Origin: Microcystis aeruginosa NIES-2549
GTDB taxonomy: Bacteria > Cyanobacteriota > Cyanobacteriia > Cyanobacteriales > Microcystaceae
DNA: 32,000 bases
Assembly: GCF_000981785.2 (NCBI RefSeq)
Contig: NZ_CP011304.1
Coordinates: 1,830,001-1,862,000, forward strand
Reading direction: 5' to 3'
A program made the translations under genes and the position numbers. Under the pieces are notes generated by a model. That model saw nothing but the letters and a program-made list of their open reading frames with translations. It did not search any database and was not told the origin of the DNA. Positions 1,387 to 32,000 of this stretch are shown here, piece after piece. The first letter of the stretch is position 1, and each line of letters starts with the position of its first letter.

Positions 1387-1507
1387 GGCTCTTCTAGGTT
1401 CTGTGTGATCAGTTTAACTTACTCTATGATCGATCGATCTTTGTGTCCTTTGTGTCTTTGTGGTTCGTTCCACCCACTCGCCAGCAGCACTGTGTCTTAG
1501 AATACAT
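1387..1507 (+). mobile_element. MITE family A, copy 1 (right end truncated)
   Basis: Begins with the family terminal repeat GGCTCTTCTAGG. Shares about 120 nt with 21058-21199 and, inverted, with 10942-11097 and 22841-22975 (core GATCTTTGTGTCCTTTGTGTCTTTGTGGTTCGTTCCAC). Similarity stops after CTTAGAATACAT; there is no right terminal repeat or target duplication. Confidence 0.75.
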
Positions 1508-1514
1508 ATCGTGC

Positions 1515-1544
1515 TTGACATAAATCCCGCAATAGTGCTACAAT
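1515..1544 (+). promoter_or_regulatory. Sigma70-type promoter candidate for rplJ-rplL
   Basis: TTGACA (1515-1520), 18-nt spacer, TACAAT (1539-1544), about 210 nt upstream of rplJ. Confidence 0.5.
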
Positions 1545-1549
1545 GAAAA

Positions 1550-1757
1550 GCTGGCTTAAGCCAAAGACAGCAGGTGCCAAACAGCTTAAATACCCTGCCG
1601 AGGTCAAAGCGAGAAAACAGCAGCCAAAAAGACCAAAGAGAGATTTTTTCTGTCTCGGTCGTGACTGAACTGATTCTCTCCACTCAACCCCGGCGCTACA
1701 AGGGGTTATTTTTGTGCCTGTGGAACCGGTCCCCCGCATACAGGAGGTGAACAAGGG
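1550..1757 (+). promoter_or_regulatory. rplJ 5' leader with an attenuator-like hairpin (L10-leader-type autoregulatory region, by analogy)
   Basis: A roughly 200-nt untranslated leader lies between the promoter candidate and rplJ, with SD AGGAGG at 1741-1746. The internal terminator-like hairpin is listed separately. The analogy is to L10(L12)4-binding leaders known in other bacteria. Confidence 0.4.
1686..1714 (+). terminator. Intrinsic-terminator-like attenuator inside the rplJ leader
   Basis: AACCCC (1686-1691) pairs with GGGGTT (1702-1707), followed by ATTTTTG. Confidence 0.5.
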
Positions 1758-10901: not shown

Positions 10902-10941
10902 GGGTTCGATTCAGGCTAAATTAAACAAGATAGTTCACCGC

Positions 10942-11097
10942 GGCTCTCTTGGATTTGGTGGGTAAAATGTATTCTAAGATATAATCCTCCTAGAGAGGGG
11001 GTGGAACGAACCACAAAGACACAAAGGACACAAAGATCAATCAATCATATTGTAAGTTAAACTTATCACACACAACCTAGAAGAGCCTCACCGCTAC
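10942..11097 (-). mobile_element. MITE family A, copy 2 (complete)
   Basis: Terminal inverted repeats GGCTCTCTTGG (left) and CCTAGAAGAGCC (right). It is flanked by the 7-bp direct repeat TCACCGC (10935-10941 and 11098-11104). Confidence 0.85.
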
Positions 11098-12585: not shown

Positions 12586-12918
12586 ATGACCATTACTGCG
12601 AGCGACCTACCGATGGAAAAAATTGCCCAGTTTTGCGATCGCTGGCAAGTGACCGAATTCGCTCTATTCGGCTCCGTCCTGCGCGAAGACTTCCGCCCCG
12701 ACAGCGACATTGATGTTATGGTGGAATTTCATCCAGAGGCTCATCCCACATTCAGCACCCTAGACCAAATGGAAGCAGAGCTAAAAACCATTTTCCATCG
12801 AGATGTTGACCTGATTACCCGCCAAGGCATTGCCACCAGTCGCAACTACCTACGCCGTAATCAAATCCTTTCTTCGGCTCAAGTGATTTATGCAACGGGA
12901 TCCCCAATTCCTGCTTGA
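12586..12918 (+). CDS. MNT-type nucleotidyltransferase (antitoxin of MNT/HepT type VII TA pairs)
   Basis: LFGSVLREDFRPDSDIDVMVEF is the GS..R...DSDID nucleotidyltransferase motif; 110 aa. Confidence 0.85.
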   Translation: MTITASDLPMEKIAQFCDRWQVTEFALFGSVLREDFRPDSDIDVMVEFHPEAHPTFSTLDQMEAELKTIFHRDVDLITRQGIATSRNYLRRNQILSSAQVIYATGSPIPA

Positions 12919-13006
12919 TATGCTGCAATCCGCAGATTTTGTCAGGTGCGTTTCTTGCTGCGACGACAGGGAACGCACCTTACCGATTATCGAAAATTTG
13001 GGTTAA
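12890..13006 (+). pseudogene. hepT (DUF86) toxin remnant, with only about 15 N-terminal codons retained
   Basis: ATG 12890 overlaps the MNT 3' end, as in intact MNT-HepT operons. MQRDPQFLLDMLQSA resembles HepT N-termini. From 12935 the frame runs into hairpin repeat copy A and stops at 13004-13006. Confidence 0.5.
12935..12987 (+). repeat. Hairpin repeat family H, copy A
   Basis: GATTTTGTCAGGTGCGTTTCTTG CTGCGACGA CAGGGAACGCACC TTACCGAT. The two arm differences from copy B are C->T changes opposite G, so they remain G-U compatible. Confidence 0.85.
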
Positions 13007-13340
13007 AACCCCGTCCTTTTAGGACGGCTTTAAGCTAGAATAAAAAAGCGATAACCAAGCTAAAAACTGAACCTTGACAACAGATAGTAGGGGGTTTTGT
13101 TCAGAAAAGAATTCAAATTCGGCCTTGAACGAGTAAAACTTTCTAGGAAATAAGGTTGAACATTAGATTTTTTCGACTTGTTCAAAGTGGCCGGAGGGCA
13201 TTCGGACACTCAAAACGGACGTGGAGAAAGAGTCAGACTTAAGCAATTAAGCGTTTTTCGGTGAAGCGTCAACCCCATTCAGCGACCACCCTAAAAAAGT
13301 GGCGTGGTGAGGAATCGCCGTCCGTTTTACGGCGGCGAGG

Positions 13341-14036
13341 ATGTCAAGATACAATCGCGGCATATACTTCTCGCTTGCGACAACCGCGATGAATGTTTTC
13401 TGGCGCTATTTCCCCTTGGCATTTGTTGTTATGCTTTCTAATGGTTTCACCCCACACGCGATGAATGTTTTCTGGCGCTATTTCCCCTTGGCATTTGTTG
13501 TTATGCTTTCTAATGGTTTCACCCCACAACAAGGGCGAACGGAATCACCCAAAGTTACCTGTCAAATAGAAAGCTATCCCTCCACAAAGCAAAAAGTTCC
13601 CACGACAATGATCCAGAACGGAACGGGAAATTTAGTACCATTTATTTATTGGGTAGAGGAAGTTGCGGGGGAAAAGCCACTAGAGCGGTGCAAGGAAGTT
13701 TCTGAGATTATTCAAGCAAGATATGACGATAAAACCTGGAGTCGTTCTTTTTTACGGACGGGAAAATCGAGTGATAATTATCCGATCATTTGTTTTGTCA
13801 AGGAACCCAAAGATAAAGCTTGCGATACCGAAAGAGAACTTATCGTTAAATTAAAGCGAGGGGAAAACGCGGAAAGAGTTTTAGATAAGATGTTAGCCCT
13901 TCGCTATCGGTTAATAAGAAGAAACTTTCTTACATTCACGGATAATTTTATTTTTTATTCTGGGGGAGCCAACCTTTATATTGATGTTGATAAGTTTCTC
14001 GAAGAAGTGGAGCGATCAAGGACTGAAAGACAATGA
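13341..14036 (+). CDS. COP23-domain (circadian oscillating protein 23-like) protein; start codon uncertain
   Basis: FIYW, PLERCKEVSEIIQARYD, NYPIICF, ACD..RELIVKLKRGENAERVLDKML fit the COP23 pattern as I recall it. The 5' end contains a 72-bp tandem duplication providing alternative ATGs at 13389 and 13461. Confidence 0.65.
   Translation: MSRYNRGIYFSLATTAMNVFWRYFPLAFVVMLSNGFTPHAMNVFWRYFPLAFVVMLSNGFTPQQGRTESPKVTCQIESYPSTKQKVPTTMIQNGTGNLVPFIYWVEEVAGEKPLERCKEVSEIIQARYDDKTWSRSFLRTGKSSDNYPIICFVKEPKDKACDTERELIVKLKRGENAERVLDKMLALRYRLIRRNFLTFTDNFIFYSGGANLYIDVDKFLEEVERSRTERQ
13386..13529 (+). repeat. Tandem duplication, 2 x 72 bp (71/72 identical)
   Basis: Units 13386-13457 and 13458-13529 differ only at the last base. 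The duplication is in frame (24 codons, AMNVFWRYFPLAFVVMLSNGFTPH/Q twice). Confidence 0.95.
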
Positions 14037-15480
14037 TAAAAAGATGGTTCGCTTGGTTGGGTATTGTCTCGATATTGATACCTTTTCCTGTGGCAATCGC
14101 TCAGTTGGATCAATCACAATTAAAGGAGATTACCGTCAGAATTGATGTAGAAGGAAGCTATAAAGAGGATGGGGGTTCTGGGGTAATCGTTCGCCAGCAA
14201 GGACAATTCTACACGATTCTAACAGCATATCATGTGGTGCAAGAAAAGAGAAACTATAAAGTTTTAATTTTTAATCCTTCTAATCGGCAAATAATCGGTA
14301 GCCACATCATTAATGAGAAAAATATGGTTCTTCGGTTTGTGTTATGCGATGGATGGGGTTACAAGGGATGAAAACCTTATATAGAAAGACATTCGGAGAT
14401 TTATGTCAATTGTTTTCGATCTAGAACTAACTAATCAATTAAGTCTCTTGCCAGATAAGGATTTGGTCGATTTATGCCCCCCGATCAAACCATACCAAGT
14501 AACGAAGAACCAAAAATATTAAGCAAATTGACGATTACGATCTAGCGGAGATTACCATACAAAGTTCTGCTAAATATCGAACGGCGAATATAGGAGATAG
14601 CCAGCAATTACAACCCACCGATGATTTAACCGTTTCTGGCTATCCGCTTCCTTCCTCTCTGATTACAGAAAGGCTATCTACTTCCACCCTTAGACTGGGT
14701 AAATTTACTGATAGATTACCTCCTGATGCGCTACTAAAAAGACAAAAGGGGGCAACGCTGAAGATAGATGTAACAACGGAAGTCGGAATGAGTGGCGGCG
14801 CGGTTGTTAATAAAAATGGTGAATTAGTCGGAATATTAGTCGAAGCAGATAAAGACGCTTCTGGGAATAAATCATCATCTTTAGCGATTCCTATTAATTT
14901 ATATCCTCAGTGGCAAGCGATTCGGAATTCTCAAAGATTATCTTCCCCTCTTCCCTCTCCCAATCAAACTTTGGAGCAATTACTAGCAGCTAAAAAATGG
15001 GGACAAGCGAATGATAAAACTTGGGAGATTTTACTAAGTAAAGGCGATTCAGATAAGTCAGGCGATTTAGATAGCAATGAATTGCTATCTTTAAACTGTA
15101 AAACTCTAGCAGATCTAGATCTAGCGTGGCGTAAAGCATCTAATGGAAGATATGGATTTCGGTTACAAAGAAGCATTTATAATAAGTATCATTATACTTT
15201 GCCGCCTAGAGAGTCTCGGCTTTATCTTTATACAGAATTCGCTAAAGAGCTAGGTTGGTTTAACGATATTCAACAAGTATCAACTCTCTCAATTTCAAGT
15301 TTATACAATCAAAAAAATCCCAATCTCGGCTTTTACCCAATTTGGTTTGTTGACCGAGGACAATTAGGACAGTATCCTTTTGGTTTACCTTCCGATGATA
15401 ATCTATTGCGCGATCCTGGTTCAATTTGGGAAAGTAGGGGAACGATCTTGAGCGATATGTTAAAACGATGTTCGATATAA
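14033..15480 (+). pseudogene. Trypsin-like serine protease with a C-terminal GUN4-like domain, interrupted by a MITE
   Basis: Catalytic His (GSGVIV...YTILTAYHVV) lies in 14033..14371; Asp (DLAEI) and Ser (GMSGGAVV) lie downstream of the insert. The C-terminus (KKWGQANDKTWEIL...LNCKTLADLDLAWRKASNGRYGFRLQRSIY) fits the GUN4 pattern. Removing 14326-14519 gives one uninterrupted 1254-nt ORF (417 aa). ATG 14033 overlaps the COP23 stop (ATGA). Confidence 0.8.
14326..14511. mobile_element. MITE family B (186 bp) inserted in the protease gene
   Basis: Ends are GGTTCTTCG... and ...CGAAGAACC (imperfect roughly 30-bp inverted repeats). It is flanked by a perfect 8-bp direct repeat AAAAATAT (14318-14325 and 14512-14519). 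Confidence 0.85.
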
Positions 15481-15543
15481 TTTTTATCGCGGAAACCAGA
15501 TACAAAATCAATCAAAAACTGTAGATATAACTGAACAAACTTA

Positions 15544-16071
15544 TCAAGAAATTTTGACATTCGGAAATCTTAGAAAACTAGAATTGCCACGAATGTCAGT
15601 ATGTAATTCAAAAGTGTCAAATTCACGGATTTGAGAAGGAATATTATTAAACGTTAATGTTACCTTGACTGGAGCTCCCTGCGGAAACCTTGAGCTAATC
15701 CTCCCTTCTTCTTTGCGATTACCAATTTGAATTTGACTACAAAGGTAAAGATTTCCAAATGCGTCATACAATTTAGTGACATCCCGATCCTGACATAATA
15801 TAGTGATATTGGTATCTTCTTTACTTCTAATAACCACCGAACATTTTACAGAGGAGCCGGAACGAGTGCAACTTTGTAAGACTCCTGAAAAATACTTATT
15901 TTCGCTGAAAATAGGTTGTTGTGCCAGTAGTTGTGTGTCCCTACGGCTATTGATTCCGTCGTTGACTTGGCTTTCTCTTACCCCTGTCATTCTCTGAGAT
16001 GCCGACACGCTAACCCCCGAAACCAATAAAGCCAAAGCGAGTAAACCAAAAGCCGATGTTCTGTAAACCAT
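15544..16071 (-). CDS. Secreted hypothetical protein (signal peptide plus Cys-containing beta-rich domain)
   Basis: I start it at ATG 16071, 9 nt after GAGGAG, giving MVYRTSAFGLLALALLVSGVSVSASQ, a signal-peptide-like N-terminus. I recognise no family. Confidence 0.6.
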   Translation of the reverse strand: MVYRTSAFGLLALALLVSGVSVSASQRMTGVRESQVNDGINSRRDTQLLAQQPIFSENKYFSGVLQSCTRSGSSVKCSVVIRSKEDTNITILCQDRDVTKLYDAFGNLYLCSQIQIGNRKEEGRISSRFPQGAPVKVTLTFNNIPSQIREFDTFELHTDIRGNSSFLRFPNVKIS

Positions 16072-16197
16072 ATCAGGTGACTCCTCACACAATAAAGAAA
16101 ACCGAATCATGCTATTATAGCCGAGATCGTAGCACAGATCATTATATTTGAAGCATTGTCCAGTAAATCCTATTATTTTGATGATAATTTAATCAAT

Positions 16198-16506
16198 TTA
16201 TAGAGAAGAAATAGATTGATAGGGAATGATTTCTTCTAGCTTATTGCCTAGATTTTCTCTGGCTACATCCAATTCATAAGCCTTTTGTAAATTCATCCAC
16301 AATTCTGCACCAGTATTAAAGAAACGTCCTAATTTTAAAGCAATATCTCCCGTGGGATTCGCGTCTCCTTGTAGGATGTGATAGAGAGTTTCTGACGATA
16401 CATAAATTTTTTGGGCAAGCTGAGAGATAGTAAGATCAATTTCTTCTAATTCATCCGCGAGAATTTCACCGGGGTTAATGGAGCTTTTCCAATCATTCAT
16501 CATCAA
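16198..16506 (-). CDS. higA: HigA-family (XRE HTH) antitoxin
   Basis: INPGEILADELEE..LTISQLAQKIYVS..TLYHILQG....TGDIALKLGRFFNTGAELWMNLQKAYEL matches the HigA/VapI consensus; 102 aa. Confidence 0.85.
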   Translation of the reverse strand: MMMNDWKSSINPGEILADELEEIDLTISQLAQKIYVSSETLYHILQGDANPTGDIALKLGRFFNTGAELWMNLQKAYELDVARENLGNKLEEIIPYQSISSL

Positions 16507-16512
16507 CCTCCT

Positions 16513-16575
16513 TTAATGATAATCAACAATTTCAACATGACAGGGTTTCTGTGTCTTGACAGCGAAAACTTTTAA
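16513..16575 (-). pseudogene. higB toxin remnant (last 20 codons only)
   Basis: The minus-strand frame reads LKVFAVKTQKPCHVEIVDYH*, ending 6 nt before the higA ATG. ...V.IVDYH* is the typical C-terminus of HigB 'killer' proteins. The frame is closed by a stop at 16576-16578, next to the stop of the 271-aa gene. Confidence 0.45.
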
Positions 16576-16582
16576 TCATAGA

Positions 16583-17398
16583 CTATTTAGCTTCTTTAAC
16601 CGAATCTAACTCTAAAGAGTTGATTATCTCTCTCGCTTCCTTTTCATACTTATCAAAGTCTTGGGTACTGGCTTCATAACGAATCGTATATTGTTTTTTA
16701 CTGTATAAAAAACCAATATCTCTTCGTTTAATATTGTCTGCATCATAAACTAATTCATAGTTAGCTGAATTACCCTTGAATTGAAATTTTTTATTACCTA
16801 TAAAATAAGTATTGTTTTTGTTATCTATAGCAGTCATAGCTCTTTTCTGGTAAAATTTTTGCAAAGTAACATCGTTGTCATAAAGCTCTTCGACAATCAA
16901 GAGTATTTTAGGAGAATTGCTTTCATTACTAACAAAAGACTTGGGGATGATGGTAGCGTCAGGAACATCAGGAATTGCAACAGATTGACATCCAAGTTGT
17001 TGCCAATTCTGCGGGATTTGAACAGTGATCCCCTCGCAAGAGAAGGAAAGAGGTTTTGGGAATAACATAGTTAGCCAAAGTTGAACCTTATCGGGATTAG
17101 TGATAAAAGTAACCATAACCGAACCCAATACAGCTATCGGTAAATTTTTTTGCCCGAATTCCATTAGCCATGAAAGGATCGTGTTTTTTTTCTCTGGTTT
17201 GCTAGAATTTACAGAGGGCTGTTCGGATGGATGACTTTTTTTCTGATTGTTTGTCCAGAAAGGTAATAGTTGACCGATCCTTGTAATGATCGATTGTTTT
17301 GATTTTGTCTCTGGTTTGGTAGAATTTACAGAGGGCTGTTCGGATGGATGACTTTTTTTCTGATTGTTTTTCCTAGAAAAGGGTAGTTTAGGGATCAT
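16583..17398 (-). CDS. Hypothetical membrane-anchored protein with a duplicated N-terminal segment
   Basis: 271 aa. NNQKKSHPSEQPSVNS(T/S)KPE occurs twice, followed by a TM helix (LPIAVLGSVMVTFI). The roughly 170-aa C-terminal domain vaguely resembles PsbP/DcrB-like folds; this is a weak impression only. Confidence 0.55.
   Translation of the reverse strand: MIPKLPFSRKNNQKKSHPSEQPSVNSTKPETKSKQSIITRIGQLLPFWTNNQKKSHPSEQPSVNSSKPEKKNTILSWLMEFGQKNLPIAVLGSVMVTFITNPDKVQLWLTMLFPKPLSFSCEGITVQIPQNWQQLGCQSVAIPDVPDATIIPKSFVSNESNSPKILLIVEELYDNDVTLQKFYQKRAMTAIDNKNNTYFIGNKKFQFKGNSANYELVYDADNIKRRDIGFLYSKKQYTIRYEASTQDFDKYEKEAREIINSLELDSVKEAK
17191..17382 (-). repeat. Direct repeat inside the 271-aa gene (about 73-75 bp units, 117-bp period)
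   Basis: 17191-17263 and 17308-17382 share TCTCTGGTTTG(C/G)TAGAATTTACAGAGGGCTGTTCGGATGGATGACTTTTTTTCTGATTGTTT. The period is 39 codons. Confidence 0.9.
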
Positions 17399-17618
17399 TG
17401 GTTGAGGATGGTTGTTGATGGCATACAGCAGTTACTTTATTCCTCTGGTACAGCCAATTCCTTATTGGATAAACCTTTCAGGGTGGAGAATTTACCAGAA
17501 CAAACATGAATCCGCCGTAACGATATTATAACTACAGTGTAATCATTGATCTTATCGGATAAATTAGCCGTCAAGGAGAATAATAACGTTAGTGCGATAT
17601 CGATAATAATTATAATGA

Positions 17619-17664
17619 GATTTTGTCGGGTGCGTTCCCTGCTGCAACGACAGGGAACGCACCC
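17619..17664 (+). repeat. Hairpin repeat family H, copy B (perfect 14-bp stem)
   Basis: GATTTTGTC GGGTGCGTTCCCTG CTGCAACGA CAGGGAACGCACCC. Confidence 0.9.
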
Positions 17665-17792
17665 TATGCCATTTTTCTTTATTCGTGGCAGACATCTTAC
17701 TCCCATTTTCTTTTCTAGAATAGGGTTTGAGGTTGGAGGCAATTAACCATCTCTGCCATTACTTTAGAAAAATGGTATTAGCAAGGTCCTAT

Positions 17793-18494
17793 TCACGTTT
17801 CATCAGGATTATCTTCTATATTGTTGACTTTCGTTAATTGTGGAAAAATATCTCGTACTGACTTTTCAAATTTTTTGTAGGAAGATAAGGATTCTAATTT
17901 CGACAATGGGATTTTTGTACCAATCTGTGAATATAAATCGTCAATTTTTAGTTTATTTCGATAGCGTTTAGTAATACCTTCTCTGGCTTTATTGATGGCA
18001 TTTTTAATCGTTTCTTTCGGATTGCTAAAAGATTCGGGATCTTTATCGATTGCTAACTCACTATCACTTTTCTTTGTACACAATTCTTTTTTTAGTAATT
18101 CTTTGTCTGCTAATATCCAGGCTTCAGTCATTTGTATTGGAACGATAGCAACTAAATTTTTACATAAGTCTCGCTCGTCTGATTTAATAGCATTAAAAGC
18201 CGGATCAATTCTTTCCTTAAATGCGTTTTCATCTGTTTTATCATCTGCGTCTGCATGGAAGCACAAAACCATTGCTCCCTTCTCCACCGCTTGAATTGCG
18301 TATTTTTTAGCTTTTTCTCGGATATTTTCGCCAGAGATTTGTGGAAGACAAATTGGGTCAAAAATTTCTATTTCTTGTTCATCGTCAAAAGCAACTCTCT
18401 CGAAAGTGCGCTGAATAATATTCGTTAAAAATCTATGATCGGAACTGCCTTCTGTAGCTAAGGCAATAATTATTTGTTTGATTTTTTTTGCCAT
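17793..18494 (-). CDS. DUF4276-like / TOPRIM-like protein, partner of the upstream ABC ATPase
   Basis: 233 aa. It has acidic motifs spaced as in TOPRIM/DUF4276: IIIALATEGSSD, LCFHADADD, PIQMTEAWILAD. Its start lies 10 nt after the ATPase stop. Confidence 0.7.
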   Translation of the reverse strand: MAKKIKQIIIALATEGSSDHRFLTNIIQRTFERVAFDDEQEIEIFDPICLPQISGENIREKAKKYAIQAVEKGAMVLCFHADADDKTDENAFKERIDPAFNAIKSDERDLCKNLVAIVPIQMTEAWILADKELLKKELCTKKSDSELAIDKDPESFSNPKETIKNAINKAREGITKRYRNKLKIDDLYSQIGTKIPLSKLESLSSYKKFEKSVRDIFPQLTKVNNIEDNPDET

Positions 18495-18504
18495 CTTAAT
18501 TGAT

Positions 18505-19929
18505 TTACATTAATTGGTTTTGTTGATTTTTAATATTTTTAATCGCACTTTCAGCATCAGCAGTTTTTAGATATTCGACAACTTCCGAGAGAGTTAGCTT
18601 GGCCTCATTTTCGGATAAAAATAAGGTTAATTGCTTTTTATTATCTTTGATAACAGGGTGAAAATTACTGCTTTTCATCTTAATTCGCTTCCCTTCAATA
18701 GTGGATATTCGATTGGTAAGTTGAGAAAGCCAAATGCTGACATTTTTATCATCTTGCCAATTAATTAATTGACTCACCAGAACCGGAGAATGAGTGTTCA
18801 CTATTACTTGGCGTAAAGGCATTTCAGTATCTTCAAAATCGACAGTTAGCTCTTTTAATAATCTTGCCATTGCTTCAATACGAAAAGGATGAATGCCATT
18901 TTCTGGCTCTTCAAAACACAGTAATCCTGTGTGTTGTCGGTCGTATTGCAGGACACATAATGTTAATAAACGTAGGGTTCCTTCGGAAAGCACTCTTGAA
19001 GAAAACTCCCGACCATCATCACCTTTTACCTTGATAATAAATTGTCGATTTGCTTTGTCGTCATAAACATTAACTTCTGTAAGATTCGGTAGCAGATTAT
19101 TGAGATCACGGGAAATTGCTGTGAGGGTATATTCATCATCTTGTTTAATGCGAAATAAAGCAGCGGCTAAATTCTTTCCGCTTGCTGTTATTGTATCTCT
19201 GATGCCCATATCTTGACGAGTAGGTTCTCGCAAATCTTCGGGATTAAGCTGCATAAACTTCCAACTCAGCATTTCTTGTTTGGCGGCTAATATATGTTTA
19301 AAATCTATAGTATTAATGCTGCTTAAAACAGTTTGTGATGCGTTTTTTGCGGGAAATACTTTTTTATTTCCTTGTTGACCGTCTTGAGGTACAACAATGG
19401 TAGCAATACCATTAATATCTTCAGTCTTAATATAAGGAATGGCTCTCCTACCCGTTACTTTTGGTCGCCAAGTTTCCAATACTGTCTTAGGAATATAATT
19501 TTTTACCCAATTATCTTCATTGTGCTTTAAATTTTCTAAACGTTCATCAACAATATACAAGTTTTCAAAGCCACTTATATTAGACTCTCGTTTAATTTTT
19601 AATTGATACCGTAATCTTGTATATTTAAGATCGACTTCCCCACCCCAATTATCTTTTACTTTGCGATTGACTAACATTTCCACTATAAATTCCATTTCCG
19701 TGGCGTAGTCGTCCTCATCATATTGGGTAAAAAGTTCGCTAGGATGTCCTCGCTGCTCGCTAAAAGCCGTCTTCAGATCCACTTCTGCCAACCGCGTCAA
19801 CAATTGCAAAGCATCAAATAAATTACTCTTACCAGAAGCATTAACCCCAGCAACTACAGTAAGCGGCGTAAATTCCATTTCAAAATTATGAAAGGATTTA
19901 AAGCCATGAATTTTAATATAAGTAATCAT
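18505..19929 (-). CDS. ABC-type (AAA_15/AAA_21, OLD/RecF-like) ATPase
   Basis: Walker A GVNASGKSNLFDAL, signature-like LSEGTLRLLTL, Walker B LLCFEEPENGIHP, H-loop VIVNTHSP; 474 aa. Confidence 0.85.
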   Translation of the reverse strand: MITYIKIHGFKSFHNFEMEFTPLTVVAGVNASGKSNLFDALQLLTRLAEVDLKTAFSEQRGHPSELFTQYDEDDYATEMEFIVEMLVNRKVKDNWGGEVDLKYTRLRYQLKIKRESNISGFENLYIVDERLENLKHNEDNWVKNYIPKTVLETWRPKVTGRRAIPYIKTEDINGIATIVVPQDGQQGNKKVFPAKNASQTVLSSINTIDFKHILAAKQEMLSWKFMQLNPEDLREPTRQDMGIRDTITASGKNLAAALFRIKQDDEYTLTAISRDLNNLLPNLTEVNVYDDKANRQFIIKVKGDDGREFSSRVLSEGTLRLLTLCVLQYDRQHTGLLCFEEPENGIHPFRIEAMARLLKELTVDFEDTEMPLRQVIVNTHSPVLVSQLINWQDDKNVSIWLSQLTNRISTIEGKRIKMKSSNFHPVIKDNKKQLTLFLSENEAKLTLSEVVEYLKTADAESAIKNIKNQQNQLM

Positions 19930-20060
19930 AGTTTTAGGCGATAAGTAATATTAAAACATCAGCGCAATATTTAACCATACTGGAAAATCTTATCAACTTT
20001 CGCCTGATACTGTCCTACTATAATCTAGACATTGGCTTACAGGGGTAGTGCAATTACGCC

Positions 20061-20113
20061 GATTTTGTCGGGTGCGTTCCCTGCTGCAACGAGGGAGAAC
20101 GCACCTTACCGAT
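20061..20113 (+). repeat. Hairpin repeat family H, copy C
   Basis: GATTTTGTCGGGTGCGTTCCCTGCTGCAACGAGGGAGAACGCACCTTACCGAT. It shares the TTACCGAT tail with copy A, and its stem has one bulge. Confidence 0.85.
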
Positions 20114-20901: not shown

Positions 20902-21057
20902 TTCTTCGGAAATCCCGAAAGGAAACCAATAATCTAAAACAAATGTATTATCCGAGAATTAAGTCTCTGGATTGCAATCACAGGCACTCACAGGGGTTAA
21001 CCTAGGAGCAAAAGACTATTGTGAAGCATAGTCTAAAAATTGATGACCGAGTTTACT

Positions 21058-21199
21058 GGCTCTTCTAGGTTCTGTGTGATAAGTTTAACTCACAATATGA
21101 TCGATCTTTGTGTCCTTTGTGTCTTTGTGGTTCGTTCCACCCCCTCGCTAGGAGGAATGTATCTTAGAATACATTTTACCCACCAAGCCTGGGAGAGCC
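21058..21199 (+). mobile_element. MITE family A, copy 3 (complete)
   Basis: Terminal repeats GGCTCTTCTAGG and CCTGGGAGAGCC. The 7-bp direct repeat GTTTACT lies at 21051-21057 and 21200-21206. The right target duplication ends 1 nt before the stop codon (21208-21210) of the convergent ferredoxin-like gene. Confidence 0.88.
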
Positions 21200-21207
21200 G
21201 TTTACTG

Positions 21208-22818: not shown

Positions 22819-22840
22819 GAGAAAGATACCTTTTCTGATG

Positions 22841-22975
22841 GGTTCTGTGGTTAAAATGTATTCTGAGATACGGTAACGCCGGTGGGCGAGTGGAACGAAC
22901 CACAGAGATACAAAGGACACAAAGATCGATCGCTCCTATATCAATTAAACTTATCACACAAAGAATAAGAGAGCC
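22841..22975 (-). mobile_element. MITE family A, copy 4 (one terminal repeat degenerate)
   Basis: It shares the family core in inverted orientation. It is flanked by the direct repeat TCTGATG(GG) at 22834-22840(42) and 22976-22982(84). The left end lacks the GGCTCT terminal repeat. Confidence 0.75.
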
Positions 22976-23081
22976 TCTGATGGGACTGGCAGAGATAATA
23001 TAATAGGGCAAAAAGTAGATAATCCCAATTCCTAAAACTCCCATAGTTCCCCCAGTTCAAAAAATTAGGAGGCTTAAAAAA

Positions 23082-24599: not shown

Positions 24600-24911
24600 A
24601 TGAAAATTGACGAATTACTCAAAAACAAACGAGAAAAAATTATTGCTATTGCGGCTAAACACGGCGCAAATAACGTGCGAATTTTTGGTTCTGTTGCACG
24701 GGGAGAAGCTGACGAAAAAAGCGATATTGATTTATTAATTGATTATTGTAGCGAACGTCGGAGTCCCTGGTTTCCCTTGCCGTTAATTCGAGAACTCGAA
24801 GCCTTGTTAGGCTGTAAAGTTGATATTGTTACCGAACAGGGACTTAAAGATAGAATCAGAGAGCGGGTACTAAAAGAAGCAATACCCATCGCTCTAATAA
24901 AACTCGTATAA
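24600..24911 (+). CDS. MNT-type nucleotidyltransferase (orphan; no HepT partner follows)
   Basis: RIFGSVARGEADEKSDIDLLIDY; 103 aa. Confidence 0.85.
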   Translation: MKIDELLKNKREKIIAIAAKHGANNVRIFGSVARGEADEKSDIDLLIDYCSERRSPWFPLPLIRELEALLGCKVDIVTEQGLKDRIRERVLKEAIPIALIKLV

Positions 24912-24935
24912 TCTCAATGAGAAAGGCAAACAATC

Positions 24936-25325
24936 GTGAGCAAAAAATCTATCAAAAGCTACTTGAAGAGAATTGATGCGATGACGGATGAGAATATCGA
25001 TTATTCTGATATTCCGCCATTAGGTGATGAATTCCTTACCCAAGAAACAGTATCTTTTTCGACATCAAAGCAGCAATTAACTATACAACCTATGGCAGAT
25101 TTAATCGTCCGCAATATCGATGAAGCCATCGTCAAAGCTCTCAAAAAGCGAGCCAGCCAACACGGGATCAGTGCCGAAGCCGAACACCGCCAAATCTTAG
25201 AAAAAGCCTTGCTGCAACCGCAACGAAAATCCCTAGCAGAGGTGCTACGCCAGATTCCCAACGTTGGCAACGATTCAGACTTTGATCGCGTTCAAGATGA
25301 CACAGCCAAACCAGTATTTGATTGA
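24936..25325 (+). CDS. Ribbon-helix-helix (FitA/VapB-like) antitoxin, possibly with a BrnA/DUF4415-like N-terminal extension
   Basis: The C-terminal 78 aa from ATG 25092 (MADLIVRNIDEAIVKALKKRASQHGISAEAEHRQILEKAL) look like a FitA/VapB-type RHH antitoxin. The upstream in-frame part from GTG 24936 contains MTDENIDYSDIPPLGDEF, which is reminiscent of BrnA/DUF4415. Which start is used is unclear. Confidence 0.6.
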   Translation: MSKKSIKSYLKRIDAMTDENIDYSDIPPLGDEFLTQETVSFSTSKQQLTIQPMADLIVRNIDEAIVKALKKRASQHGISAEAEHRQILEKALLQPQRKSLAEVLRQIPNVGNDSDFDRVQDDTAKPVFD

Positions 25326-31363: not shown

Positions 31364-31406
31364 TTTTGATGATTATCCTCGTTTTATTCAGTTTAACTAA
31401 GTATCT

Positions 31407-31865
31407 ATGGACAATAAAACTCTGTACGAACAAGACTTTTATCTCTGGATTAGAACTACTATTAATCAACTGCAAGCGAGACAGTTTGAGCGGGTAGATT
31501 TAGAGAATTTACTAGAGGAGTTAGCAAGTATGGGAAGGAGTGAAAAGCGCAAAATCGAAAATCTTTTGATTCAATTGCTGGTACATTTGCTGAAACTAAC
31601 CTACTGGACAGGAGAAAAATCTAGAAATGAGGGTCACTGGAAAGGGGAAATTATCAACTTTCGCCGACAAATAATCGAAGAAATTAAAGATAGCCCTAGT
31701 TTAAAACCCTATATTCTGGAAATTTTTGAGGAATGCTATCAATTTGCTAGAAAAGAGGCTCAAGTTAGAACTCAATTACCCCTCGATACTTTCCCCCCTA
31801 TTCCCATTGGTTCCCTTGAACAAATTCTCGATGAAGATTGGTTTCCCACTAATAACCACGAGTAA
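31407..31865 (+). CDS. DUF29-family protein
   Basis: LYEQDFYLWI, DLENLLEELASMGRSEKR...LLVHLLKL.YW are typical DUF29 motifs; 152 aa. Confidence 0.85.
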   Translation: MDNKTLYEQDFYLWIRTTINQLQARQFERVDLENLLEELASMGRSEKRKIENLLIQLLVHLLKLTYWTGEKSRNEGHWKGEIINFRRQIIEEIKDSPSLKPYILEIFEECYQFARKEAQVRTQLPLDTFPPIPIGSLEQILDEDWFPTNNHE

Positions 31866-31881
31866 TATATAGAGGTAAATT

Positions 31882-32000
31882 ATGGATAATAAAACTCTGT
31901 ACGAACAAGATTTTTATCTCTGGATTAGAACTACTATTAATCAACTGCAAGCCAGACAGTTTGAGCGGGTAGATTTAGAGAATTTACTAGAGGAATTAGC
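31882..32000 (+). CDS. Second DUF29-family paralogue, 3'-truncated by the window edge
   Basis: ATG 31882. Its first 119 nt differ from 31407-31525 at only 4 positions, all of them third codon positions. Confidence 0.8.
   Translation, partial: MDNKTLYEQDFYLWIRTTINQLQARQFERVDLENLLEEL

What the first reader, a model, noticed from the sequence alone, without database searches (positions are those of the whole stretch)
17619..20113. ABC-ATPase + DUF4276/TOPRIM-like two-gene cassette bracketed by hairpin repeats: candidate conflict/defence module
Seen: a 474-aa ATPase with Walker A GVNASGKS, Walker B LLCFEEPENGIHP and H-loop NTHSP. Ten nucleotides later comes a 233-aa protein with acidic motifs (TEGSSD, HADADD, TEAWILAD) spaced as in TOPRIM/DUF4276 domains. 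The pair is AT-rich: a spot count of one 60-nt line gives about 30% GC, against about 53% in a purB line. It sits between purB and infC and is bracketed by same-orientation copies B (17619-17664) and C (20061-20113) of a 46-53-nt hairpin repeat. Established: split ABC-ATPase plus TOPRIM-type nuclease pairs (OLD, PARIS AriA/AriB, AbiL-type) are anti-phage systems. Inference: this is a member of that class. To my knowledge its DUF4276 effector has no described mechanism, trigger or target. I cannot tell from memory whether this exact family is already catalogued (for example as AbiL-like).
Basis: partly seen in the sequence, partly recalled or inferred. Interest (0 to 1): 0.75.

Follow-up and report, generated by a model that had tools for sequence, protein, structure and literature searches.

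The report
Catalogued candidate phage-defence gene pair, Microcystis
This is an intact two-gene candidate anti-phage module (an ATPase plus a small putative nuclease) of a family already listed in defence databases as HEC-01; it sits in a variable stretch of the Microcystis chromosome where different strains carry different defence genes, joined at copies of one 46-base hairpin.

Summary
A 474-aa ABC ATPase (18505-19929, minus strand) is followed 10 nt later by a 233-aa DUF4276 protein (17793-18494). Both are intact, with 35% GC against 43% for the window. Same-orientation hairpin copies lie at 17620-17665 and 20062-20107.

The family is not new. Both proteins match PADLOC's candidate system HEC-01 over their full length (E 1e-141 and 1e-48). 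HEC-01 is described in the literature as an ABC ATPase plus a TOPRIM-like protein. Phage tests were negative in one study and positive in another, and no mechanism is known.

My structure model places the ATPase with SMC, Rad50 and PtuA heads. I could not confirm the TOPRIM fold of the DUF4276 protein. Only the motif positions (E15, D82xD84, E124) and strand order fit it.

The organism is Microcystis. The pair is present in most strains and missing in four loci where a single hairpin remains. It is absent beside infC in 79 other cyanobacterial loci.

In other strains the purB-infC interval carries a type II restriction-modification pair, a PD-T4-4-like system, a STAND NTPase or MNT-HepT. These modules are joined exactly at the 46-nt hairpin, which I found only at this locus. 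That hairpin junction is the only possibly new element.

The parts
18505..19929 (-). HEC-01A-type ABC ATPase, 474 aa. Walker A GVNASGKS at residue 28, signature-like LSEGT at 314, Walker B/D-loop LLCFEEPENGIHP at 336, H-loop NTHSP at 378.
   Evidence: ORF. Pfam AAA_21 6.5e-32 and AAA_15 2.4e-21. PADLOC PDLC04184 HEC-01A 1.4e-141, residues 1-460 of 474. AF2 model pLDDT 85. Foldseek matches SMC head, Rad50 and PtuA at E about 1e-11. dN/dS 0.08-0.23.
17793..18494 (-). HEC-01B-type DUF4276 protein, 233 aa. Putative TOPRIM-like metal-dependent nuclease effector with conserved E15-G16, D19, H80-x-D82-x-D84, E124, W126 and D130.
   Evidence: Pfam DUF4276 35.8 bits against a cutoff of 30.2. PADLOC PDLC04212 HEC-01B 1.5e-48. 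Conserved columns. AF2 model pLDDT 90.5 with beta-alpha topology b1-a1-b2-a2-b3-a3-b4. dN/dS 0.45-0.7.
18495..18504 (-). 10-nt intergenic spacer between the two genes. In distant homologues the two genes overlap by 4-8 nt, which suggests a single operon.
19930..20061 (-). Upstream region of the ATPase gene. It travels with the cassette in all strains, so it presumably holds the promoter. No convincing consensus promoter was found.
   Evidence: Left-flank type 'L3' is conserved in every cassette-bearing locus. The promoter scan was no better than shuffled sequence.
20062..20107 (+). Hairpin element copy C (46 nt), the junction between the cassette and the infC side.
17620..17665 (+). Hairpin element copy B (46 nt, perfect 13-bp stem), the junction between the 4.7-kb module and the 3' side of the cassette.
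12936..12981 (+). Hairpin element copy A (46 nt), the junction between the truncated HepT gene and the 4.7-kb module.
12982..17619 (.). Variable 4.7-kb module (COP23, a MITE-disrupted trypsin-GUN4 gene, a 188-aa unknown, an HTH_3 protein and a 271-aa unknown). It is absent in L001, L003, L004, L096, L107 and L112.
12586..12935 (+). MNT nucleotidyltransferase antitoxin gene (12586-12918) plus the 5' remnant of its HepT toxin gene, cut off exactly at hairpin A.
   Evidence: Pfam NTP_transf_2. PADLOC PDC-S09. HepT is intact in L001, L003 and L004.

Best explanation
The two genes are an intact member of the HEC-01 family, a stand-alone operon of an SMC-type ABC ATPase and a DUF4276 protein.

I infer that the ATPase acts as the ATP-driven sensor or regulator. 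I infer that the DUF4276 protein is a metal-dependent TOPRIM-like nuclease, released or activated on infection to cut nucleic acid and abort or block it. This follows the logic of PARIS, OLD and Gabija. Family membership, gene integrity, purifying selection and the defence-hotspot context are shown. The nuclease activity, the trigger and the target are inferred.

In Microcystis the operon is an old resident of a variable interval next to infC. In that interval, alternative defence modules are joined end to end at copies of one 46-nt hairpin element. Recombination at that element most likely produced the observed loss and reshuffling of modules.
For: Family membership:
- Full-length PADLOC HEC-01A and HEC-01B hits, plus Pfam AAA_21, AAA_15 and DUF4276.
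- The ATPase model matches SMC, Rad50 and PtuA heads at Foldseek E about 1e-11, probability 1.0.
- All ABC motifs are present.

The DUF4276 partner:
- Near-invariant acidic residues E15, D82, D84 and E124 across 55 representatives with 26-59% identity to the window protein.
- E15 sits just after strand 1, D82xD84 just after strand 3 and E124 a few residues after strand 4 of a high-confidence beta-alpha model. This is the TOPRIM arrangement described for DUF4276 in PMC12065111 and for HEC-01B by Payne et al..

The pair as a unit:
- It stays adjacent and co-oriented in distant lineages, including one Desulfococcaceae genome. In one case it lies directly behind a type I restriction-modification operon and in another next to PIN toxin-antitoxin genes.

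Selection and age:
- ATPase dN/dS is 0.08-0.23. Cassette dS (0.02-0.07) overlaps that of purB and infC (0.035-0.115).

Hotspot context:
- Other strains carry a type II REase plus MTase, a PD-T4-4-like ATPase pair, a STAND/Avs-like NTPase, or MNT-HepT in the same interval.
- The cassette is absent in four loci, with a single hairpin left at the site.
- At least 8 left-flank types and 5 right-flank types are joined exactly at the hairpin edges.
- The L096 hairpin is a chimera of slot-1 and slot-2 types at the place where the middle module is missing.
Against: - The one HEC-01 representative tested by Payne et al. protected against none of their phages.
- No member has a demonstrated nuclease activity.
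- My Foldseek searches with the DUF4276 model found no match at E<=0.001 in PDB or BFVD. The top hits were generic Rossmann-like folds.
- Profile comparisons with P2 Old TOPRIM were insignificant, at probability below 1%.
- DUF4276 dN/dS is high (0.45-0.7, with one pair at 1.68 on few substitutions). This could mean relaxed constraint rather than arms-race diversification.
- Copies with a disrupted gene exist (L004, L107).
- Not all rearrangement breakpoints lie at hairpins (L008 and L108-L112).
- The empty site differs from a clean B-by-C recombinant: 18 nt lie to the left of the hairpin where the occupied form has 84 nt.
Confidence: 0.6

Rival explanations
1. The pair is a selfish addiction (toxin-antitoxin-like) module. 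It persists by post-segregational killing, and the ATPase restrains a toxic DUF4276 nuclease. On this reading it has no dedicated anti-phage role.
For: Pfam labels AAA_21 as 'putative AbiEii toxin, Type IV TA system'. The pair lies next to an MNT-HepT toxin-antitoxin pair and, in L089, next to PIN toxin-antitoxin genes. The HEC-01 representative of Payne et al. gave no phage protection.
Against: Disrupted single-gene copies exist (L004 with a broken DUF4276, L107 with a split ATPase). ATPase loss seems tolerated there, which argues against strict addiction. A second study reported protection. No hit was found in 72,556 plasmids, where addiction modules are usually common.
Confidence: 0.15
2. 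The pair is an accessory of a restriction-modification or methylation-linked system (MADS-like or RloA/RloB-like). On this reading it is an orphan here and inactive by itself.
For: The best NCBIfam hits are MADS Mad3 (148 bits) and Mad4 (16.5 bits). In L091 the pair directly follows hsdR-hsdM-hsdS. In L096 and L107 a type II restriction-modification pair is its neighbour.
Against: Both NCBIfam scores are far below the equivalog cutoffs of 420 and 160. No methyltransferase or other mad gene lies near it in the window. The pair occurs alone in several unrelated contexts. The ATPase remains under purifying selection.
Confidence: 0.1
3. The hairpin copies are ordinary intergenic elements, such as transcription terminators or a dispersed REP/MITE-type repeat. 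On this reading their position at module borders is incidental, and module differences arose by unrelated events.
For: Microcystis DNA in this window is full of other small repeats. Copy B is followed by a T-rich tract on the plus strand. No recombinase gene lies in the window. There are no compensatory changes in the stem, and some breakpoints are not at hairpins.
Against: All 15 metagenome stretches with the element map to this one interval. No copies were found elsewhere in the window or in the other Microcystis loci. The edges of the element coincide to the base with at least 8 different left and 5 different right flanks. A chimeric copy sits where a module is missing (L096). The terminator scan did not call the copies.
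Confidence: 0.25

Closest known systems
PADLOC HEC-01 (Hma-embedded candidate 01; Payne et al., bioRxiv 10.1101/2024.01.29.577857)
   Same: It has the same two-gene architecture, an ABC ATPase followed by a DUF4276/TOPRIM-like protein. Both proteins give full-length HMM matches.
   Different: HEC-01 was defined from copies embedded in Hachiman systems. Here the pair stands alone next to infC in a cyanobacterial chromosome, flanked by hairpin elements. The activity of this member is untested.
MADS Mad3-Mad4 (methylation-associated defence system)
   Same: An AAA_15/21-type ABC ATPase is paired with a DUF4276 protein. The PARIS paper lists MADS3-4 among ABC ATPase plus TOPRIM systems.
   Different: Scores are far below the NCBIfam equivalog cutoffs (148 against 420, and 16.5 against 160). 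None of the other mad genes is present, and there is no methyltransferase.
PARIS (AriA-AriB)
   Same: It is a split ABC ATPase plus a small acidic-motif effector. This is the best available mechanistic model: an ATPase scaffold senses a phage protein and releases a TOPRIM nuclease that cuts tRNA (PMC11464382).
   Different: The effector here is DUF4276, not DUF4435. Only one of 44 family members gave a DUF4435 hit, at E 0.11. The AriA hits come from generic AAA_21/AAA_15 models. The ATPase carries a beta-rich insert rather than the AriA architecture.
OLD-family nucleases and Gabija GajA
   Same: They combine an ABC ATPase with a TOPRIM catalytic logic (E ... DxD).
   Different: In OLD and GajA the two domains are fused in one polypeptide. 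No significant sequence, profile or fold match between DUF4276 and the OLD TOPRIM domain was obtained here.
Core defence hotspots (for example the cDHS of Pseudomonas aeruginosa, PMC10250203) and sedentary integron cassette arrays
   Same: An interval between conserved core genes holds different defence systems in different strains. Same-orientation hairpin-forming repeats sit at every module border, as attC sites do in integron arrays.
   Different: No integrase or other recombinase lies nearby. The element lacks the attC R''/R' consensus. The module order is fixed, which simple deletion between repeats can explain.

Membership tests
PADLOC HEC-01 | Protein A matches a HEC-01A model | tested here: met
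   PDLC04184, E 1.4e-141, residues 1-460 against profile positions 1-463 of 464.
PADLOC HEC-01 | Protein B matches a HEC-01B model | tested here: met
   PDLC04212, E 1.5e-48, residues 6-220 against profile positions 2-218 of 222.
PADLOC HEC-01 | The two genes are adjacent and co-oriented | tested here: met
   10-nt gap, both on the minus strand. The same arrangement is seen in distant homologues.
PADLOC HEC-01 | Embedded within a Hachiman (Hma) system. This is the discovery context, not required for detection. | tested here: not met
   The neighbours are infC, a 271-aa unknown, an HTH protein and others. The neighbours scanned gave no Hachiman hit.
PADLOC HEC-01 | Confers anti-phage protection | not testable with these tools
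   The literature is mixed: negative, positive for one representative.
Pfam DUF4276 (PF14103) | Score above the gathering threshold | tested here: met
   35.8 bits against 30.2. All 44 aligned homologues hit the family.
ABC ATPase, SMC/Rad50/PtuA type | Walker A, signature, Walker B and H-loop motifs, and the ABC head fold | tested here: met
   Motifs. Foldseek E about 1e-11 and probability 1.0 to SMC, Rad50 and PtuA heads.
TOPRIM superfamily (for the 233-aa protein) | Four-stranded beta-alpha core with a conserved Glu after strand 1 and DxD after strand 3 | tested here: inconclusive
   Secondary-structure order and conserved E15 and D82xD84 fit. Foldseek gave no TOPRIM match at E<=0.001; the nearest was an RloB-like protein at E 0.054. 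hhalign against P2 Old gave probability below 1%. The assignment rests on PMC12065111 and Payne et al.
PARIS (AriA/AriB) | The effector is a DUF4435-type TOPRIM protein (AriB) | tested here: not met
   No AriB or DUF4435 hit for the window protein. One of 44 family members hit DUF4435, at E 0.11.
MADS (Mad3/Mad4) | NCBIfam equivalog scores above the cutoffs, and presence of the other mad genes including the methyltransferase | tested here: not met
   MAD3 148 bits against 420, and MAD4 16.5 bits against 160. No methyltransferase or other mad hit in the neighbours.
Menshen (NsnABC) | NsnB ATPase together with NsnA and NsnC | tested here: not met
   The NsnB model gave only 1.8e-18, far weaker than HEC-01A. 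There are no NsnA or NsnC genes.
Integron cassette array (for the hairpins) | attC sites with R''/R' core consensus, and an IntI integrase (or a CALIN-type attC cluster) | tested here: not met
   No recombinase lies in the window. RYYYAAC and GTTRRRY are not found at the ends of the element when the copies are inspected. No attC model was run.

The most novel reading that the evidence does not exclude
The 46-nt hairpin would be a dedicated recombination site. It has inverted arms of 10-13 bp around an asymmetric spacer, is always in one orientation, and was found only in the purB-infC interval. On this reading a trans-encoded recombinase, or a hairpin-dependent single-strand mechanism, uses it to excise, insert and reshuffle defence modules. 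The locus would then be an integrase-less, integron-like cassette array for immune genes in a bloom-forming cyanobacterium, with HEC-01 as one of its cassettes.
Probability: 0.2. Interest if true: 0.75.

Novelty: new member of a known kind. Interest (0 to 1): 0.42.

Why it matters
HEC-01 is a widespread family: the DUF4276 profile recovers 1,537 clusters at 50% identity. Yet it has no known trigger, target or biochemistry, and the phage tests conflict.

An intact member under purifying selection, sitting in a natural presence/absence polymorphism in Microcystis, offers a tractable case. Natural strains with and without the cassette could be compared for phage susceptibility, which bears on bloom-phage ecology.

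Separately, the hairpin-joined modular hotspot suggests a concrete and testable route by which defence islands between core genes are assembled and pruned. For most 'core defence hotspots' no such mechanism is known.

Tried and rejected
1. Foldseek of the DUF4276 model against PDB and BFVD gave no significant match, so the fold test was inconclusive.
2. hhalign of the family alignments A1 and A3 against P2 Old (full length, then the TOPRIM region) was insignificant. The register did put TEG on VEG and DAD on DCD.
3. I spent the last homologue search on the P2 Old TOPRIM region to build a profile. It returned only 5 hits and was useless.
4. Sequence and profile searches of PDB returned nothing relevant for either protein.
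5. tblastn of the DUF4276 protein against plasmids gave none. Against phages it gave one 'UNVERIFIED' contig that carries RuvB and other cellular genes and is probably bacterial. There is therefore no evidence of carriage on mobile elements.
7. Rfam gave nothing for the hairpins at either the gathering threshold or E<=1.
8. Promoter and terminator consensus scans were no better than shuffled sequence.
9. I rejected the integron attC reading on motif grounds and for lack of an integrase.
10. I rejected a simple MITE insertion into HepT, because the sequence beyond hairpin A is not the rest of HepT.
Full report
**1. What is there**

The window holds two intact minus-strand ORFs. One runs 18505-19929 (474 aa) and the other 17793-18494 (233 aa), separated by 10 nt.

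The two ORFs have 35.0% GC. The window as a whole has 42.6%, purB 45.0% and infC 44.6%. The low-GC stretch begins near 13600, well to the left of the cassette.

The hairpin repeat has three same-orientation copies. The comparison defines it as a discrete 46-nt unit:

ATTTTGTC-GGTGCGTTCCCTG-CTGCAACGA-CAGGGAACGCACC-YT

The copies lie at 12936-12981 (A), 17620-17665 (B) and 20062-20107 (C). The 57-nt copies (core plus flanking bases) fold at -22 to -30 kcal/mol.

**2. Identity of the proteins**

The ATPase hits Pfam AAA_21 (6.5e-32) and AAA_15 (2.4e-21). The small protein hits DUF4276 at 35.8 bits, above the gathering score of 30.2.

Against PADLOC-DB both match one candidate system over their full length: HEC-01A PDLC04184 at 1.4e-141 and HEC-01B PDLC04212 at 1.5e-48.

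NCBIfam's nearest models are MADS Mad3 (148 bits, cutoff 420) and Mad4 (16.5 bits, cutoff 160). This is a relative of MADS, not a member.

*The ATPase.* An AlphaFold model built on 32 homologues has pLDDT 85. It matches SMC, Rad50 and PtuA (Septu/retron) heads at Foldseek E about 1e-11 and probability 1.0. It is therefore an SMC-type ABC ATPase, with a large beta-rich insert at roughly residues 69-193.

*The DUF4276 protein.* Its model has pLDDT 90.5. It shows a b1-a1-b2-a2-b3-a3-b4 core followed by a helical C-terminal half.
- Across 44 close homologues and 55 diverse ones with 26-59% identity to the window protein, E15-G16, D19, H80, D82, D84, E124, W126 and D130 are invariant or nearly so.
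- E15 sits just after strand 1, D82xD84 just after strand 3 and E124 a few residues after strand 4. This is the TOPRIM arrangement.
- My independent tests did not confirm TOPRIM. Foldseek against PDB and BFVD gave no match at E<=0.001.
- hhalign against P2 Old gave probabilities below 1%.
- PDB profile searches found nothing.
- The TOPRIM assignment therefore rests on the motif and topology fit and on two papers.

**3. What is known about the family**

Payne et al. (bioRxiv 10.1101/2024.01.29.577857) defined HEC-01 as an ABC ATPase plus a TOPRIM protein found embedded in Hachiman systems. They reported a conserved metal site when it is aligned to BpOLD. They saw no protection from their representative in E. 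coli.

A cold-seep study reported that one HEC-01 representative protected against at least one of T4, T5 and T7.

The Menshen analysis (PMC12065111) calls DUF4276 a new TOPRIM member and links it to Mad4. The PARIS paper groups MADS3-4 with ABC ATPase plus TOPRIM systems.

Only four papers in the library mention DUF4276 at all. None gives a trigger, target or enzymology. Its mechanism remains open.

**4. Organism and distribution**

Homologue names identify the source as Microcystis.

Across Microcystis copies the ATPase is 96-99% identical and the DUF4276 protein about 90-95% identical. The DUF4276 protein is 100% identical in M. panniformis FACHB-1757, locus L002.

Pairwise dN/dS is 0.08-0.23 for the ATPase. 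It is 0.45-0.7 for DUF4276, with one pair at 1.68 on few substitutions. Cassette dS (0.02-0.07) overlaps that of purB and infC (0.035-0.115). The cassette is therefore an old resident that has diverged together with the core genome, not a recent import.

Outside Microcystis, none of 79 cyanobacterial infC loci carries the pair within 10 kb.

Homologous pairs occur patchily in other cyanobacteria, Desulfobacterales, Calditrichaeota, Chloroflexi and others. They are always ATPase then DUF4276 with overlapping stop and start codons. Contexts vary:
- next to PIN toxin-antitoxin and Uma2 genes (L089);
- directly behind hsdR-hsdM-hsdS (L091);
- in a non-defence neighbourhood (L092).

The DUF4276 profile recovers 1,537 clusters at 50% identity. 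All of the best 150 listed are stand-alone proteins of roughly 100-240 aa, mostly about 220.

I found no copy on PLSDB plasmids. The single 'phage' hit is an unverified contig with RuvB and other cellular genes.

**5. The locus is a modular defence hotspot joined at hairpins**

Contigs carrying the identical infC protein, and the 15 metagenome stretches that contain the hairpin, all come from the same Microcystis interval. They show several architectures:
- (a) The window, L002, L105 and L106: purB, MNT with a truncated HepT, hairpin, 4.7-kb module, hairpin, DUF4276-ATPase, hairpin, infC.
- (b) L001, L003, L004 and L112 on the purB side: intact MNT-HepT, a degenerate half hairpin, the cassette, hairpin, with infC following (replaced by a ribD-side region in L112). 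The 4.7-kb module is absent.
- (c) L094, L095, L098 and L099: the 4.7-kb module, a single hairpin, then infC. The cassette is absent.
- (d) L096 and L107: purB, a type II REase (PDLC03406, 1.4e-66) plus an MTase, hairpin, the cassette, hairpin, infC.
- (e) L093, L102 and L104: purB, a PD-T4-4-like ATPase (PDLC04033, 7.5e-62) plus a 319-aa protein, hairpin, other genes.
- (f) L101: purB, hairpin, then a STAND/Avs-like NTPase and large proteins.

One search shows at least 8 distinct left flanks and 5 distinct right flanks joined combinatorially, and to the base, at the two edges of the 46-nt element. For example:
- The HepT 5' fragment is joined through a hairpin to the COP23 module (window), to a variant COP23 module (L105), or directly to the DUF4276 side (L097).
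- The infC side is joined either to the ATPase upstream region or to the 4.7-kb module.

In L096, where the middle module is missing, the hairpin is chimeric. It has the left arm and spacer of the slot-1 type (GTTTCTTG CTGCGACGA) and the right arm of the slot-2 type (GGGGGAACGCACCCT).

The element was found nowhere else in the window, in the other Microcystis loci fetched, in the 79 other cyanobacterial loci, or in IMG/VR. It matches no Rfam family.

**6. Limits of the hairpin story**

- The empty site is not a clean B-by-C recombinant. To the left of the hairpin it has 18 nt that duplicate the sequence to the hairpin's right, where the occupied form has 84 nt.
- Several rearrangements have breakpoints outside the hairpins. 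In L008 glnA lies next to infC, with the break 29 nt beyond hairpin C. In L108-L111 the cassette lies between a TnpB gene and an EF-G gene, with breaks at window positions 17723 and 20212. L112 is also rearranged.
- No recombinase gene is in the window.
- The stem shows no compensatory substitutions.
- The fixed order of the slots can be explained by deletions between direct repeats plus allelic replacement by homologous recombination.
- The metagenome pattern was strict, so diverged copies elsewhere could have been missed.

I therefore treat 'recombination junction' as the best-supported reading. A dedicated site-specific system is only the novel case, at about 0.2 probability.

**7. Mechanism**

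Shown:
- family membership;
- intact catalytic motifs;
- operon structure;
- purifying selection on the ATPase;
- presence/absence polymorphism;
- co-location with alternative defence systems.

Inferred by analogy with PARIS, OLD and Gabija, and from the conserved acidic residues:
- The ABC ATPase dimerises on ATP and senses a phage cue.
- It controls a TOPRIM-like DUF4276 nuclease that cuts DNA or RNA to stop infection.
- The faster evolution of DUF4276 could reflect an arms race or relaxed constraint.

Rival readings are an addiction module, an orphan accessory of a restriction-modification or MADS-type system, and incidental hairpins. They are listed with their tests in the rival explanations section.

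**8. Verdict**

The cassette is a new member of an already catalogued candidate family. Its biochemistry is unknown, which keeps some interest. The hairpin-joined modular hotspot is the only element that might be new.

Noticed in passing
window 14326-14511: An insertion of about 186 nt, relative to M. panniformis L002, splits a trypsin-GUN4 gene. That gene is a single 426-aa ORF in L002. A related small element is inserted just upstream of the ATPase gene (at window position 20031-20035) in L108-L111 and also occurs in L001. It looks like an active MITE.
   Followed up: partly
window 1387-1507, 10941-11087, 21057-21200, 22834-22977: Four copies, in both orientations, of another MITE-like repeat of about 120-145 nt in intergenic regions. 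They are 79-94% identical or complementary.
   Followed up: no
window 15074-15919: This stretch covers the C-terminal part of the GUN4 protein and a 188-aa unknown protein. Here protein identity to L002 drops to about 64-66%, while the flanks are 96-99% identical at the DNA level. Across strains the 188-aa protein ranges from 52% to 93% identity. It looks like a hypervariable or recombined patch.
   Followed up: no
window 13385-13528: A perfect 72-nt tandem duplication inside the COP23-family gene (13341-14036). It is in frame and adds 24 aa.
   Followed up: no
window 17186-17283 and 17303-17400: A 98-nt direct repeat (85% identity) inside the 5' part of the 271-aa unknown gene gives a repeated N-terminal peptide. 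In L112 a 297-nt piece of this region (17288-17584) is found displaced, directly upstream of the ATPase gene.
   Followed up: partly
window 24600-25325: A second MNT-HepT-type pair (103 aa plus 129 aa ORFs). It was identified only through the corresponding genes in L002, which hit NTP_transf_2 and HepT-like. The copy next to purB (12586-12918) has lost its HepT toxin gene to the hairpin junction.
   Followed up: partly
L096 and L107; L093, L102 and L104; L101 (other Microcystis strains, same purB-infC interval): Alternative cargo sits immediately downstream of purB: a type II REase plus MTase; a PD-T4-4-like ATPase plus a 319-aa protein with no family hit; and a STAND/Avs-like NTPase followed by 602-aa and 767-aa proteins (the 602-aa one had no family hit; the 767-aa one was not scanned). 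The unannotated partners may be untested defence components.
   Followed up: partly
window 1543-1659: Ribosomal protein L10 leader (Rfam RF00557, 48.5 bits). It is an ordinary feature.
   Followed up: no
window 31406-31525 and 31881-32000: A 120-nt direct repeat (97% identity) spaced 475 nt apart, at the start of a DUF29 gene and again at the window edge. This suggests tandem DUF29 paralogues.
   Followed up: no
L113 (GenBank MT836135, labelled 'UNVERIFIED: Bacteriophage sp.'): The contig carries RuvB, a DNA alkylation repair enzyme, MatE and DUF389 genes around a HEC-01-like pair. It is probably bacterial DNA rather than a phage.
   Followed up: partly
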